From Myxococcales bacterium (GTDB lineage Bacteria; Myxococcota; Myxococcia; Myxococcales; 40CM-4-68-19): DNA of 50,084 nucleotides. Location of the stretch: contig JBJMQD010000389.1 in assembly GCA_045802855.1 (NCBI GenBank), forward strand, positions 1-50,084, in the 5' to 3' direction. Shown here one piece after another: positions 4,037 to 46,387 of the stretch. The translations under genes and the position numbers were made by a program. Every line of letters begins with the position of its first letter. Position 1 is the first letter of the stretch. A model generated the notes under the pieces. It made no database searches, was not told the DNA's origin, and worked only from the letters and a program-made list of their open reading frames with translations.

Positions 4037-4650
4037 GTCGTCGCCCATCCTCCTGCCTGCGGCCTCCGCCCGTCGCAGGCAAAGCCCGCTCCTCCCGGGT
4101 CGCGCTTTTCGCCTCCTGCGCGGTGGGCATCGCCCTCGCGTGGGCGTGCGCCTCGCCCTCGAACACGAAGAAGATCGTCGCCGAGGAGTGCAGCAAGAAC
4201 CTCGACTGCGCGTACGGCCTCGAGTGCGTGGCGCCCGAAGGAAGCGCGGCCGGCGCGGATACCGATGCGGCCATCGTGCAGGGAAGACGCACGTGCCAGT
4301 ACAAGTCGTTCGGCGAGTGCGACATGCCTCCCGATGCGGACGGCGGGGGCGTCCCGGCGGCGGCTCAGACGAGCGGGCAGCAGTGTCTGCCCGGTTACCG
4401 TTGCAGGGACGGTCGTTGCACGGTGATGTGCGCCGCCAACAAGGATTGCCGCGACGGCGAGGCTTGCCGCATCGGCGTCTGCCAGAGGACCGGTGGGCGT
4501 GCGGGCGCGATGTGCTACGACAATCGAGATTGCCCTTGGCCGGAGACGTGCTTCTACGGTCAGTGCGTCATGAGCGCCCAGGGAGGGCGCTGCCAGTCGG
4601 ACCTCGACTGCCAGGCCAACTTCCACTGCGTGAACGGACTTTGCCAATAG
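4033..4650 (+). CDS. Cys-rich repeat lipoprotein (Dickkopf-N-like C..DC....C..G.C modules)
   Basis: Lipobox-like LAWAC; repeated modules CSKNLDC, CAANKDC...CRIGVC, CYDNRDC...CFYGQC, CQSDLDC...CVNGLC; the GTG start overlaps the fabD stop. Confidence 0.75.
   Translation: MSRRPSSCLRPPPVAGKARSSRVALFASCAVGIALAWACASPSNTKKIVAEECSKNLDCAYGLECVAPEGSAAGADTDAAIVQGRRTCQYKSFGECDMPPDADGGGVPAAAQTSGQQCLPGYRCRDGRCTVMCAANKDCRDGEACRIGVCQRTGGRAGAMCYDNRDCPWPETCFYGQCVMSAQGGRCQSDLDCQANFHCVNGLCQ
4046..4093 (+). repeat. Dispersed ~54-bp palindromic repeat, copy 1 (within the signal-peptide region of 4033..4650)
   Basis: ctgcggcctccgcccgtcgcaggcaaagcccgctcct matches the unit repeated at 20391-20552. Confidence 0.9.
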
Positions 4651-4651
4651 G

Positions 4652-4686
4652 GGGCTTTGCCTGCGACGGGCGGAGGCCGCAGCATA
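4652..4686 (-). repeat. Dispersed repeat, copy 2 (inverted, lacking 7 nt of hairpin 1)
   Basis: 4652-4682 is the exact reverse complement of 4057-4087 (31 bp) and continues into tatg of the consensus. Confidence 0.9.
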
Positions 4687-4773
4687 GGTGACGCGATCGG
4701 TCTTTCCTTTGACCTTCTCTGTGCTACAAGGCCGCGCGGACACATCTTCGGCCCATTTCGAAAGGAACTACGC

Positions 4774-5007
4774 ATGACGGTCGAGGCGAAGGTCAAGAGC
4801 ATCATCGCGGAGCAGCTCGGGGTGGGCGAGGACGAAATAAAGACGGATTCCGCTTTCATCGAGGACCTGGGCGCCGATTCCCTCGACATCGTCGAGCTGG
4901 TCATGGCCATGGAAGAGGAATTCGAAGTGGAGATCCCCGACGAGGAAGCCGAGCACATCAAGACGGTCAAGGACGCAGTGAACTTCATCAACGAGCACAA
5001 GAAATAG
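4774..5007 (+). CDS. acpP: Acyl carrier protein
   Basis: [29 protein letters not shown] before the ATG at 4774. Confidence 0.98.
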
Positions 5008-5025
5008 GTCCGGGAGGCAACCGGG

Positions 5026-43874: not shown

Positions 43875-43895
43875 ACACGGGAGCGGGCGGGGGCG

Positions 43896-45818
43896 ATGGC
43901 AATCGCAATCCAACTCAAGGTGTACGAGGGCGGGAAGCTGAAGTCGGCGCGGCTGTTTCGCGCCGAGCAGATCCGGCTCGGGAGCGGAACCTGCGACCTC
44001 GTGCTCGAGGGTCCGGGGGTCCTTCCCACGCACGCCGTGATCGATGCGGGCGCGACGGGGGCGGTCCTGCGGGCGTCAGGGAGCGCCCCTATCCACCTCA
44101 ACGGGCAGCCCATCATCGCCGCGCCTCTGCGGCACGGCGACCTCATTTCCATCGGCGACCTGCGGGTGATGGTGGAGCTCCGCGCGAACGCGCCGGGCCA
44201 GCCGGAACGCCGGCCCCGGCTGCAGCTCATCCAGGGCGAAGAGGACCCGCATACCGAGCCCGATCACCTCCGGCCGGCGCTCTCCGTCGTCCGGGAGGCA
44301 GCGCAGCTCTTCGAAGAGGCCCGCCACGCTGACGGCGGCCTGCACGCGCAGATCCCCGAGATGGATTCGCCGTCGCCGATTCCGGTGAGCGCGACGGGCG
44401 CGATGGCGGCGGCTCCGATTGCGCCTCCTTCCGTGGAACCGGTCGCGGCCGCCGTGCCCCGTCCTGCGACGCCTCCGCCGATTCCGGCGTCGAGCCTCGT
44501 CGGCGGCGACTGCATCGAGGCCGAGCTCTTCTGGGGCGAAACGCGGCTCGCGGTATGGCAGCTCGCTCCGGGCCAGGAGCTGACCGCGGGTACGGCGCCC
44601 GGTTGCCAGGCGCAGCTCGAGGGCCTGACCCGCGCCGTGGTGGTTCGCAGCGACGCGAGCGGATGGGTCGTCTGTGCTCCCCGGCCCTTGACGCTGGCGT
44701 TGACCGAGAACGGCAAGACCACCCTCGGTCCCGAGCTTCTCGTGCGCGGCCGTAGCCAGGCCGATGCCCAGGGGCTCCTGATGTCCCTGCCCGCGAAGGG
44801 GGTCGCGCTCCTCGGCGCGGGCCAGGTCGCGCTGCGGGTGCGAAGAGTCCCGACGCCGCCGCAGGTCGCGGCGGAACCGACCGACTGGAAGGGCATGGCG
44901 AGCGCCACCGTCGCCGCGCTCGTCCTCGTCGTCGCCATGAAGATGCTGAGCCAGGGTGTCCCGCCGCCGCGATACGGCGCGGAAGCGGAAGTGATCCGCC
45001 CGAAGCCGCTGATCGTGCGCACGACGCCGAAGCCCACCGATCCGCTGGCGCCGGTCGACCGGTCGCAGAAGGCGGAAGGGCGCAAGGATCCGGGCAAGGC
45101 GGTCGCGCGCCATCAAGGTCAGGAAGGCCAGGCGGGCAGCAAGACGGCTCCGCGTCGCGACGCGCGAGCGGAACGGGCCCGCGACGAGCATTCCATCGTC
45201 GCCTCGAGCGGCCTCCTCAAGGCGCTCGGCGCCGGCAAGGGCGCAAGCGACGTCTTCGGCGTCGCCCTGGAGAAGGGCGTGAAGGACGCGATGGGGCACC
45301 TCACCGGCCCGCGTGCGGGAGAGGCCCGCGGCGACGGCGGCATGGGGCTCCGGTCCCTCGGAGGCCGTGGAGGCGGCGGTGACGGCTCGGGTCTCGGCCT
45401 CGCCCGTATCGGAACGAACGGCATCGGCGGCGGCCTCGCCAACTACGGCGAAGGCAAAGGCGGACTGCGCGGCAAGGAGAACGTCGAGATCGGCCTCGGC
45501 CCCGGTAAGCCGGTGGTGGTCGGCAGCATCGACCCCGAGCTCATCCGCAAGGTCGTCCACGACCACCGCGCCCAGATCCGGACCTGCTACGAGACGCAGC
45601 TCACCTCGAACCAGAACCTCGCCGGCAAGGTGGTGAGCGCCTGGACCATCGACCCCGCGGGGCTCGTCACCGAGGCGCACACGCAGGAGAGCACGCTGCA
45701 CGACAAGACCGTGGAGACCTGCGTCGCGAACAAGATCAAGACGTGGAGATTCCCCATCCCGAAGGGCGGCGGCGAGGTGTTCGTCACCTATCCCTTCATC
45801 TTCACGCCGGGAGGCTAA
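43896..45818 (+). CDS. gltG: GltG/NfsG-like protein: FHA-like N-terminus, TM, Gly-rich linker, AgmX/PglI TonB-C-like domain
   Basis: LNG......L.HGD.I.IG; one TM; GSID.ELIRKVV..H..QIR.CYE..L, W.FP.PKGGG.V.VTYPF.F. Confidence 0.8.
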   Translation: MAIAIQLKVYEGGKLKSARLFRAEQIRLGSGTCDLVLEGPGVLPTHAVIDAGATGAVLRASGSAPIHLNGQPIIAAPLRHGDLISIGDLRVMVELRANAPGQPERRPRLQLIQGEEDPHTEPDHLRPALSVVREAAQLFEEARHADGGLHAQIPEMDSPSPIPVSATGAMAAAPIAPPSVEPVAAAVPRPATPPPIPASSLVGGDCIEAELFWGETRLAVWQLAPGQELTAGTAPGCQAQLEGLTRAVVVRSDASGWVVCAPRPLTLALTENGKTTLGPELLVRGRSQADAQGLLMSLPAKGVALLGAGQVALRVRRVPTPPQVAAEPTDWKGMASATVAALVLVVAMKMLSQGVPPPRYGAEAEVIRPKPLIVRTTPKPTDPLAPVDRSQKAEGRKDPGKAVARHQGQEGQAGSKTAPRRDARAERARDEHSIVASSGLLKALGAGKGASDVFGVALEKGVKDAMGHLTGPRAGEARGDGGMGLRSLGGRGGGGDGSGLGLARIGTNGIGGGLANYGEGKGGLRGKENVEIGLGPGKPVVVGSIDPELIRKVVHDHRAQIRTCYETQLTSNQNLAGKVVSAWTIDPAGLVTEAHTQESTLHDKTVETCVANKIKTWRFPIPKGGGEVFVTYPFIFTPGG

Positions 45819-45823
45819 GTCCG

Positions 45824-46318
45824 ATGCTCGCCGCTGCCCTTCTGCTCGTCGCCGCACCCGCAACGCTTCCGGTGACGCAGCGCGGTCCGTTCGTGGAGAT
45901 GCAGGCCGGTCCCCAGGTGCTCTTCCGTGGGCACGGCGTGGTCGGGACCGGGCCGGAGGTCCGCCTCGATGTCGGCCTCGGCGTGAGCGAGCGCTTCGCC
46001 TTCGAAGGCTGGGTCTCGGGCGCGCTCGAGAACGCGCCTCTGCGTGCGCCCGGAGACGAGTCGCGCCTCGGCGCTGGCCTCGCGGCCCGGGCCCGCGTCT
46101 ACCAGTTCGACTCCGAAGGCAAGCTCGCGCTCTGGGGTCGTGCCGGCGCGGGCTTCGCGAGCAGCTCCGGCCAGTCGGGACCGCTCGGATTCGGCGGCGC
46201 GCAGATCCTCTGGCAACCGTTCGTGAAACGGTTCGCCTTCGGCATCGAGGCCGACGCGCTCCTCATGCGGGGCGGGGCCGGTTTCGCCGTGCTGCCTTCC
46301 CTGCGCTGCGCCCTATAA
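45824..46318 (+). CDS. Small outer-membrane beta-barrel, at the GltH/NfsH position
   Basis: Signal peptide, alternating amphipathic strands, last gene of the cluster. Confidence 0.55.
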   Translation: MLAAALLLVAAPATLPVTQRGPFVEMQAGPQVLFRGHGVVGTGPEVRLDVGLGVSERFAFEGWVSGALENAPLRAPGDESRLGAGLAARARVYQFDSEGKLALWGRAGAGFASSSGQSGPLGFGGAQILWQPFVKRFAFGIEADALLMRGGAGFAVLPSLRCAL

Positions 46319-46335
46319 GGCTCTTCTCACTACGG

Positions 46336-46387
46336 AGGAGCGGGCTCTGCCTGCGACGGGCGGAGCCCGCAGGGCGGAGCATACGGA
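46336..46387 (-). repeat. Dispersed repeat, copy 7 (intergenic)
   Basis: Reverse complement reads tccgtatgctccgccctgcgggctccgcccgtcgcaggcagagcccgctcct. Confidence 0.88.

What the first reader, a model, noticed from the sequence alone, without database searches (positions are those of the whole stretch)
4046..46387. 54-bp two-hairpin dispersed element that is translated inside N-termini of exported proteins
Seen: 7 copies at 5 sites (4046-4093 +, 4652-4686 -, three tandem at 20391-20552 +, 37366-37419 -, 46336-46387 -). The unit is 54 nt (a multiple of 3), has no stop codon in any of the six frames, and carries two triloop hairpins (GGCC-TTC-GGCC and GCGGGC-AAA-GCCCGC). At three sites it is inside a CDS, each time in a different frame or orientation: [13 protein letters not shown] in the Cys-rich lipoprotein signal region, MLRPSASARRGQS in lptE, and EEQALPATGAGQRPEHPE just after the GltC signal peptide. 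Known parallels: REP/REPIN elements mobilised by RAYT HUH transposases, and Rickettsia palindromic elements (RPE) that insert in frame into proteins. Inference: a non-autonomous mobile element family, not one I recognise, that is tolerated in or recruited into signal-peptide regions. Being stop-free is partly expected at this GC content.
Basis: partly seen in the sequence, partly recalled or inferred. Interest (0 to 1): 0.8.

Follow-up and report, generated by a model that had tools for sequence, protein, structure and literature searches.

The report
Small hairpin repeat translated inside genes
An uncultured soil myxobacterium carries about 200 copies of a 54-base two-hairpin repeat that has recently inserted next to gene starts and, in frame, inside many ordinary protein genes, much like the palindromic elements of Rickettsia.

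Summary
In detail: 7 copies at 5 window sites belong to a family of 197 copies (180 loci) in this 5.1-Mb draft genome. The unit is a 49-nt conserved core plus about 5 variable bases, and both hairpins are kept by compensatory changes. It is mobile or was recently: 15 of 21 loci compared with a congeneric genome are empty there, none is filled, and 6 were uninformative. The lipoprotein has a 51-nt in-frame insert in its signal peptide. In lptE, 161 nt displaced the old GTG start, so the only usable starts are element ATGs. GltC-like carries 18 extra residues after its signal peptide. The signal-peptide link is only a minor mode. Most in-ORF copies (82 of 98) lie the other way round, anywhere in conserved proteins (Tgt, HolB, RsmB, a GT2 glycosyltransferase), read in two of three frames. 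About 29 copies end 5-12 nt before a start codon, with GGAGG where a ribosome-binding site sits. No RAYT/Y1 transposase, reverse transcriptase or recurrent neighbour gene was found, and there are no terminal inverted repeats or target duplications. I read it as a new REP/RPE-like family. Intragenic palindromic repeats are already known. The mobilising mechanism and actual translation remain inferred.

The parts
4043..4095 (+). Element copy (diverged first hairpin) inside the signal-peptide n-region of a Cys-rich DUF7107 lipoprotein (CDS 4033-4650). Net 51-nt in-frame insertion.
   Evidence: nhmmer E 1.9e-12. The congener G002 has an empty site, MSR|PLVALLVSFAAGVAVVYAC, and the same GTGA stop/start overlap with fabD. 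Pfam DUF7107.
4644..4689 (-). Truncated copy (37 nt net) directly after the lipoprotein stop codon and about 90 nt upstream of acpP.
   Evidence: nhmmer E 3.9e-7. Empty in G002, with ATAGG on both sides of the insert. RNA-library contigs of three studies cross it and carry a form 7-14 nt longer.
20388..20557 (+). Three head-to-tail copies between the leuS stop (20376-20378) and the lptE body. They hold the only in-frame start codons of lptE (ATG 20398, 20452, 20506) and encode the n-region and part of the h-region of its lipoprotein signal peptide.
   Evidence: TRF period 54 and nhmmer. In G002 the site is empty, with a GTG start overlapping the leuS stop (MKRALVLVLAAGC). The window has 161 extra nt, which puts the old GTG (20375) out of frame. 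Pfam LptE 37.5 bits.
37358..37424 (-). Copy with its G-rich strand in the sense of the GltC-like TPR gene (CDS 37293-38984). It encodes REEQALPATGAGQRPEHP just after the signal peptide.
   Evidence: nhmmer E 2.5e-15. GltC-like proteins of G003, G006 and G008 run from the signal peptide straight into SPEPEEEAARAFAAL without these 18 residues. NF033756 GltC scores 268 bits, below its cut-off of 450.
46328..46390 (-). Intergenic copy, G-rich strand in the sense of the downstream TIGR04552-family gene (start called at 46429).
   Evidence: nhmmer E 7.6e-15. Empty in G002, about 59 nt net. NCBIfam TIGR04552.

Best explanation
This is a lineage-restricted family of small palindromic, non-autonomous repeats of the REP/RPE kind. 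The unit is about 54 nt, and its G-rich strand reads GGAGGAG, hairpin GCGGGC-TTT-GCCCGC, GACGGGCGGAG, hairpin GGCC-GMA-GGCC, GGAGCATACGG. Copies have been added to the genome recently by a trans-acting activity that was not identified. There are no terminal inverted repeats and no target duplication. Because the unit is 3 x 18 nt and usually free of stops, a copy that lands in a gene adds 16-18 residues and does not break the gene. Such copies are translated and kept where the extra peptide is harmless: variable loops, inter-domain linkers, signal-peptide n-regions and just behind signal peptides. Outside genes, copies persist mostly in 5' leaders and operon spacers, with the G-rich strand in the mRNA, where the terminal GGAGG lies at ribosome-binding-site distance from the start codon. 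As by-products, copies have supplied a new start codon and signal-peptide N-terminus (lptE), new ribosome-binding sites (metG) and a new C-terminus with its stop codon. Shown here: family size, hairpin covariation, empty sites, in-frame continuity, and the orientation and frame bias. Inferred: actual translation, the selective filter and the mobilising enzyme.
For: Size and spread. There are 197 copies in 180 loci. Identity to the consensus averages 90% over the 49-nt core, with 145 distinct cores among 159 copies. The family was found in 25 of 41 relatives (genus 8/8, family f1 20/24, also f5 and f7). In a phylum sample it was found in only 4 of 201 genomes, all in f1 or f5. At least 120 soil metagenome stretches hold it.

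Mobility. Of 21 G000 loci compared with the congener G002, 15 are cleanly empty, 0 are filled and 6 were uninformative. One G002 array has no copy at the syntenic G000 place.

In-frame residence. 32 copies lie at least 60 nt deep in ORFs with coding-like flanks on both sides. A single Pfam match runs across the insert in 4 of 10 hosts tested (RsmB, HolB, GT2, Tgt); in the other 6 the insert lies beside or between domains. The Tgt insert is absent from 5 relatives, one of them 86% identical, and from a solved Tgt. Net inserts inside ORFs are 48, 48, 51, 51, 54, 54, 54 and 114 nt. Outside ORFs they are 37, 44, 59, 84 and 161 nt.

Peptide-level filter. The reading frames of the 28 G-strand-sense deep copies split 15/12/1 (p 0.003).

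Orientation. In ORFs the split is 82:16 and in co-directional spacers 36:8. This was repeated on 72 metagenome loci that are not G000-like: 34:5, 23:4, and 11 of 11 deep in ORFs.

Placement. 29 copies end 5-12 nt before a co-oriented start codon. Only 2 of 84 intergenic copies lie between convergent genes, where 8-15% were expected.

Hairpins. Compensatory pairs are counted.
Against: No protein data exist, so translation is inferred. The multiple-of-three lengths are partly circular, because those sites were chosen as lying in open ORFs. No mobilising enzyme was found. PF01797 (Y1/RAYT) and PF00078 (reverse transcriptase) gave 0 matches in G000, though this is a 481-contig draft in which repeated genes may be unassembled. 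None of 10 Y1-like loci in relatives is flanked by the element. Element-rich G000 and G030 show no Y1 match, while G009 and G026 have 12-15 Y1 matches and no element. The similar orientation bias inside and outside ORFs is not explained by peptide tolerance, nor by target-motif frequency: GGAGGAGC-like words are no commoner on the sense strand (ratio 0.3-0.86). My gene calls come from a home-made codon model, so counts near gene starts are approximate. The Tgt structure model was poor (mean pLDDT 53).
Confidence: 0.75

Rival explanations
1. The repeat is mainly a functional RNA module kept by selection. It would act as a portable leader that supplies a ribosome-binding site and stabilising hairpins, or couples translation between cistrons as proposed for mycobacterial MIRUs, and is not merely selfish DNA.
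For: The G-rich strand lies in the mRNA sense in 36 of 44 co-directional spacers. 29 copies place GGAGG 5-12 nt before a start codon. Copies are nearly absent from convergent spacers, 2 of 84. The wobble asymmetry favours folding of the G-rich strand, with 60 G.U-type cells against 14, but 48 of the 60 come from one position. At metG the element replaced a weak native ribosome-binding site.
Against: About half of the copies lie inside ORFs, where a leader function makes no sense. All 15 informative loci are empty in a congener whose genes work without the element. Folding energies of single copies are only modestly better than shuffles, z -1.1 to -4.1. No expression data were tested.
Confidence: 0.2
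2. Copies spread without a dedicated transposase. The route would be template switching or recombination at short homologies between the element's end (GCCCGCTCCTCC) and similar native sequences, such as ribosome-binding sites, Glu-Glu codons and Leu-rich CTC runs.
For: 7 of 13 native junctions hold GCTC within 10 nt, against 17-19% expected (p 0.006). At lptE, C263:24225, C140:11894 and site 1-left the native DNA resembles the element's end. Insert lengths vary (37-59 nt for single copies). There is no target duplication, only 0-5 nt of microhomology. No transposase was found.
Against: The motif was chosen after seeing the data. Several clean sites (C56:24021, C140:15259) show no such resemblance. 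The 37-nt copy is a secondary deletion, because longer forms exist in other samples. Strict conservation of both hairpins through compensatory changes suggests recognition by a protein.
Confidence: 0.2
3. The in-ORF copies are not translated. Either the genes start downstream, or they are pseudogenes, or the 54 nt are removed from the RNA.
For: There is no direct protein evidence. Some copies called 'inside' within 0-30 nt of a called start are probably upstream of the true start.
Against: Empty-site comparisons show homologous coding sequence in the same frame on both sides. Hosts include conserved genes such as holB, tgt, rsmB and lptE. lptE has no other start codon. The frame bias of 15/12/1 would not arise if the peptide were never made. 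No removal mechanism is known for such a short insert (my own knowledge).
Confidence: 0.06

Closest known systems
Rickettsia palindromic elements (RPE; Ogata et al. 2000, recalled; RPE-4 and RPE-6 as treated in PMC3733652, passages and section 6 read)
   Same: Small palindromic dispersed repeats found both between genes and in frame inside unrelated conserved protein genes, adding a short peptide without destroying the host. No dedicated transposase is known.
   Different: There is no sequence relation. Here the unit is 54 nt with two different GC-only triloop hairpins. Orientation is strongly biased (82:16) and two of three frames are used. Many copies sit at ribosome-binding sites. The host is a free-living, high-GC soil myxobacterium and not a reduced intracellular genome.
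CGTC-tagged REP families CGTC-1 to -4 (Di Nocera et al. 2013, PMC3733652)
   Same: The second hairpin is directly preceded by a conserved CGTC (147-157 of 159 copies per base). Intragenic copies occur. No flanking RAYT was found.
   Different: The paper defines stems of 8-9 bp with A-T in the first two positions, loops of 4-5 nt, a CCA tail and mostly head-to-head dimers. Here the stem is 6 bp and all G-C, the loop is 3 nt, the tail is TCCTCC and only head-to-tail arrays occur. Those REPs lie mostly downstream of genes, including convergent spacers. Here only 2 of 84 intergenic copies lie in convergent spacers.
REP/REPIN-RAYT systems (PMC3116915, PMC2817692: listings and abstracts only)
   Same: A high-copy short hairpin repeat, vertically persistent within a lineage and non-autonomous.
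   Different: There is no GTAG tag and there are no inverted REP doublets. No RAYT was found in G000, and none of 10 Y1-like genes in relatives is flanked by the element. The element is not extragenic.
Mycobacterial interspersed repetitive units (MIRU; recalled, no paper read)
   Same: Units of 40-100 bp in head-to-tail arrays in operon spacers, oriented with transcription. They are open to translation and overlap neighbouring start and stop codons.
   Different: MIRUs are described as intercistronic, not as inserts deep within conserved proteins, and have no paired triloop hairpins. This comparison rests on recall.

Membership tests
CGTC-tagged REPs (Di Nocera 2013) | CGTC tetranucleotide at one end of the palindrome | tested here: met
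   Columns 42-45 read CGTC in 147-157 of 159 copies, directly 5' of hairpin 2. The definition comes from PMC3733652 section 6.
CGTC-tagged REPs (Di Nocera 2013) | Stem of 8-9 bp with A-T in the first two positions, loop of 4-5 nt, CCA tail | tested here: not met
   The stem is 6 bp (GCGGGC/GCCCGC), the loop is AAA and the tail is TCCTCC.
CGTC-tagged REPs (Di Nocera 2013) | Mostly head-to-head dimers | tested here: not met
   All 14 arrays were defined as adjacent copies on the same strand. Opposite-strand pairs were not specifically counted. The only close inverted pair seen, at 4043-4095 and 4644-4689, flanks a native gene.
REP/REPIN-RAYT | A RAYT (Y1 transposase, PF01797) gene flanked by the repeat | tested here: not met
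   0 matches in G000. Of 10 Y1-like loci in G002, G018 and G022, none is flanked by the element; 2 have arrays 0.6-1.6 kb away. Y1 counts do not track element counts. G000 is a draft, so absence is not proven.
REP/REPIN-RAYT | Extragenic location, mostly downstream of genes | tested here: not met
   98 of 197 copies have their midpoint in a called ORF, and only 2 of 84 intergenic copies lie in convergent spacers.
MITE | Terminal inverted repeats and a target-site duplication | tested here: not met
   The ends GGAGGAGC and GCATACGG are not complementary. At clean 54-nt sites (C56:24021, C207:6261, C140:15259) the junction can be shifted by only 0-1 nt. At most 5 nt (ATAGG) is repeated, at one truncated copy.
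RPE-like in-frame palindromic inserts (functional class) | The repeat lies in frame inside conserved protein genes whose relatives lack it | tested here: met
   Tgt; GltC-like; the lipoprotein; the C56, C207, C140, C154 and C263 genes against G002.
RPE-like in-frame palindromic inserts (functional class) | The encoded peptide is present in the mature protein | not testable with these tools
   This needs proteomics. Only indirect support exists: the frame bias, in-frame lengths and conserved hosts.

The most novel reading that the evidence does not exclude
The element may be mobilised by a mechanism not yet described for bacterial repeats. Insertion would be strand-specific and tied to transcription or to ribosome-binding-site-like GGAG/GCTCC sequences, needing no RAYT. 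The element would then act as a portable translation-start cassette: the G-rich strand brings a ribosome-binding site, and the C-rich strand brings an ATG plus a basic signal-peptide n-region. In that case it would routinely rewrite gene starts and the N-termini of exported proteins in this lineage.
Probability: 0.15. Interest if true: 0.8.

Novelty: new member of a known kind. Interest (0 to 1): 0.55.

Why it matters
In-frame 'selfish' repeats are best known from Rickettsia and a few REP-rich species. Here a free-living, GC-rich soil myxobacterium shows the same behaviour at high density, with about one copy per 26 kb and roughly half of them in ORFs. Clean empty-site controls are available in a sister species. 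That makes several questions tractable. How do proteins tolerate 18-residue inserts? How are start codons, ribosome-binding sites and signal peptides replaced in nature? The lptE case is a natural start-codon swap. What moves hairpin repeats that have no RAYT? There is also a practical point: gene callers will mis-set starts and protein lengths in these genomes unless the repeat is recognised.

Tried and rejected
- RAYT/IS200 partner: none in G000, and no flanking in relatives.
- Retron or reverse-transcriptase origin: no PF00078 match in G000.
- Recurrent neighbour gene: clustering of 361 proteins within 600 nt of copies gave only large generic families such as response regulators and ABC ATPases.
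- Genes between copy pairs in G022: ordinary genes only.
- Known RNA family: no Rfam match at gathering score, nor at E<=1.
- Plasmids (distant blastn) and viral contigs (exact pattern): no match.
- Target-motif frequency as the cause of the orientation bias: rejected.
- A fixed target-site duplication: rejected at the clean sites.
- One long 14-bp hairpin instead of two short ones: it is the predicted minimum-energy fold of some G-strand copies. The variable positions, however, covary within the two short hairpins and not across the long one.
- GC-skew test for a replication-strand bias: uninformative on short contigs, since the genes themselves gave an odd 898:1287 split.
- First six-frame flank classification: too strict a threshold, superseded.
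- AlphaFold model of Tgt from a 6-row alignment: mean pLDDT 53. The insert (residues 180-200) is low-confidence coil, but the model is too poor to lean on.
- RNA-library contigs: none bridges the in-CDS copy at 4043-4095, because contigs break in the repeat. This is no evidence either way.
- Earlier notes of this scan: nothing found.
- Literature: three full-text searches for a myxobacterial description of such a repeat found none. ISfinder could not be consulted. Supplementary tables of PMC3733652, which list the intragenic REPs, were not seen.
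Full report
**1. Observation**

A blastn-short search of the genome (G000: 5.14 Mb, 481 contigs, 68.4% GC; the window is contig C132) gave 171 hits at E<0.01. 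A profile built from 103 long copies gave 197 hits at E<1e-3 and 228 at E<1. These fall in 180 loci: 166 single copies, 11 dimers and 3 trimers, with arrays defined as adjacent same-strand copies.

It is followed by 4-5 half-conserved bases, which gives the 54-nt period of the arrays. Mean identity to the consensus over the core is 90%, and 145 of 159 cores are distinct.

Both hairpins are kept by compensatory change:
- Pair 26/34 is G-C in 125 copies and C-G in 27, with 3 mismatches.
- Pair 48/58 is G-C 66, C-G 24, A-T 8 and A.C 48. The last is a G.U pair on the opposite, G-rich strand.

A single long hairpin is the predicted minimum-energy fold of some copies. The variable positions do not covary in that register.

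Being stop-free is unremarkable here: 30% of random genomic 54-mers are stop-free in all six frames, and 116 of 160 copies are.

**2. The three coding sites in the window**

*(a) Cys-rich lipoprotein (DUF7107).* In the congener G002 (80-85% nucleotide identity, syntenic) the gene begins with a GTG that overlaps the fabD stop and reads MSRPLVALLVSFAAGVAVVYAC. The window has the same GTGA overlap plus 51 extra bases, and reads VSR[[17 protein letters not shown]]SRVALFAS.... A second, truncated copy (37 nt net) follows the stop codon and is also missing in G002.

*(b) lptE (Pfam LptE).* In G002 a GTG overlapping the leuS stop starts MKRALVLVLAAGC. In the window, 161 nt (3 x 54 - 1) lie between that GTG and the conserved LVLAAAC. 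This puts the old GTG out of frame. The first in-frame start codons are the ATGs of the three copies at 20398, 20452 and 20506. Whichever ATG is used, the N-terminus of this lipoprotein precursor is repeat-encoded.

*(c) GltC-like protein (NF033756, 268 bits, below the family cut-off of 450).* G002 has a deletion of about 265 nt here and is uninformative. The proteins of G003, G006 and G008 go from the signal peptide straight to SPEPEEEAARAFAAL. The window reads ...SAALANP[REEQALPATGAGQRPEHP]EDDAARTFAAL.

The fifth site (46328-46390) is intergenic and empty in G002.

**3. The wider picture**

I called genes with a home-made codon log-odds model (4803 calls, 92% coverage). Counts near gene starts are therefore approximate.

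- 85 copies lie wholly in called ORFs, 42 overlap an ORF end and 70 are intergenic.
- 32 copies are at least 60 nt deep in an ORF with coding-like flanks on both sides.

Hosts include RlmN, RsmB, HolB, a GT2 glycosyltransferase, Tgt, HflX, an M3 peptidase, an SLT transglycosylase and an FTR1/cytochrome c protein. A single Pfam match runs across the insert in 4 of 10 hosts tested (RsmB, HolB, GT2, Tgt). In the other 6 the insert lies beside or between matched domains. The Tgt insert (RPEETASPASPVAKASRPQHP) is missing from five relatives, one of them 86% identical, and from a solved bacterial Tgt. It falls where another relative has an unrelated extra loop.

**4. Mobility**

I compared 21 G000 loci with G002:
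- 15 are cleanly empty in G002.
- None is filled.
- 6 were uninformative because of a deletion, a contig break or divergent sequence.

Conversely, a G002 array has no copy at the syntenic place in G000. G002 itself carries the family: 26 listed matches and 88 candidates.

| Location of copy | Net insert lengths (nt) |
|---|---|
| Inside ORFs | 48, 48, 51, 51, 54, 54, 54, 114 (a dimer) |
| Outside ORFs | 37, 44, 59, 84, 161 |

This fits a constraint to keep the frame. The ORF sites were chosen as open ORFs, so the argument is partly circular.

At the clean 54-nt sites the junction can be shifted by only 0-1 nt. There is therefore no target duplication, and the two ends are not inverted repeats.

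At one site (C47:8809) the copy replaces the C-terminus of the upstream gene and provides its TAG stop. At metG (C47:5620) 84 nt replace the native leader.

**5. Orientation, frame and placement**

The G-rich strand is in the gene's sense in 82 of 98 copies whose midpoint lies in an ORF, and in 36 of 44 copies in co-directional spacers (p 7e-12 and 3e-5). Of the 32 deep copies, 28 are in this orientation. They are read in frames 15/12/1, giving [17 protein letters not shown] or GGAGFARDGRRPQAGAYG, and almost never RSGLCPRRAEAEGRSIR (p 0.003).

The pattern repeats on 72 soil-metagenome loci not close to G000: 34:5 in ORFs, 23:4 in spacers and 11 of 11 deep copies.

29 copies end 5-12 nt before a co-oriented start codon, with GGAGG in the ribosome-binding position. 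Only 2 of 84 intergenic copies lie between convergent genes, where 8-15% were expected.

The frame bias argues for a filter at the peptide level. The equal orientation bias outside ORFs argues for a second cause at the DNA or RNA level, which I could not identify. It is not the frequency of GGAGGAGC-like words, which are no commoner on the sense strand.

**6. The signal-peptide idea**

Copies with the C-rich strand in the gene's sense are the minority, but they cluster at 5' ends. Of 16 such loci, 10 are followed within 30 residues by a hydrophobic stretch, against 35% of all genes by the same crude measure (p 0.02). For the opposite orientation the count is 18 of 62, no different from background.

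Examples beyond the window include:
- MLRPSASARHGQSPFLLRCVAVSLAALVALLAAPAGA (C127).
- MLRPAACARRRQSLLLLLVTASAC (C319).

The association is therefore real but modest, and it concerns a small subset.

Native junctions often resemble the element's end: GCTC lies within 10 nt in 7 of 13, against 17-19% expected. CTC-rich Leu runs would fit such a preference. The motif was picked after seeing the data.

**7. What moves it**

- No PF01797 or PF00078 match in G000.
- No recurrent neighbour gene.
- Y1-like ORFs are common in relatives: 31 of 41 genomes score over the cut-off, with up to 39 per genome.
- None of 10 Y1-like loci inspected is flanked by the repeat.
- Y1 counts do not track repeat counts.

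The enzyme is unknown, and a draft genome cannot exclude an unassembled one.

**8. Distribution and expression**

The family was found in 25 of 41 relatives: the whole genus, most of family f1, and also f5 and f7. In an even phylum sample it was found in only 4 of 201 genomes. Relatives carry titles such as 'Myxococcales bacterium' soil MAGs.

RNA-library contigs from three studies run across the copy at 4650-4688 together with both flanks. They carry a form 7-14 nt longer, so the 37-nt copy is a deletion derivative. DNA carry-over in those libraries cannot be excluded.

**9. Comparison with what is known**

Di Nocera et al. 2013 (PMC3733652; passages and section 6 read) describe GTAG- and CGTC-tagged REPs. 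Their set includes R. conorii RPE-4 and RPE-6, intragenic copies in several species, and no dedicated transposase for the CGTC class.

The second hairpin here is preceded by a conserved CGTC. However, stem length, loop, tail, dimer type and placement all differ from their four families. It is therefore not a member, although it behaves like one.

It is neither a MITE nor a REPIN by the features tested. I found no description of it in three full-text searches. ISfinder and the paper's supplementary tables could not be consulted.

**10. Verdict**

This is a real, recently active, lineage-restricted REP/RPE-like repeat family. The signal-peptide emphasis is too narrow. Translation and the mobilising mechanism remain to be shown.

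Noticed in passing
L033-L038 (G008, G003, G007, G001, G005, G004), leuS-lptE spacer: Six other members of the genus carry, at the same leuS-lptE junction, an unrelated long inverted repeat of about 80-110 nt rich in CACGGAG/CTCCGTG words. The junction seems to be a hotspot for different palindromic inserts.
   Followed up: no
G002:C91:19327-19331 versus window 37170-37436: G002 lacks about 265 nt. This joins the 3' part of the OMP_myx_plus barrel gene directly to the gltC-like body, removing the signal peptide. It is either a real deletion or a MAG misassembly.
   Followed up: partly
Relatives G002-G040: Weak PF01797 (Y1 transposase-like) ORFs of 210-280 aa occur in up to 39 copies per genome in relatives, yet none was found in G000. 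What they are and what they move is open.
   Followed up: partly
G000 C154:26649, C247:1069, C284:8302 (Tgt), C463:7377, C326:3008: A second, more diverged subfamily of the repeat (nhmmer E about 1e-5) encodes ...EE(P/T)A(L/S)PASPVA(Q/K/E)A(S/R)RP... when it lies in ORFs.
   Followed up: no
G022:C7:112623-112989 (L142); G030:C52:9968-10474: Long head-to-tail arrays, 7 copies upstream of an accA-like gene in G022 and about 10 in G030, compared with at most 3 in G000.
   Followed up: no
window 4060-4101: One DNA contig of run X1 joins 4060 to 4101 with 4 other letters between, a net loss of 36 nt. This looks like a population variant in which most of the in-CDS copy is deleted in frame.
   Followed up: no
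window 3083-6282: The Cys-rich lipoprotein gene sits between fabD and acpP, where a fabG would be expected from recalled gene order. G002 shares this arrangement.
   Followed up: no
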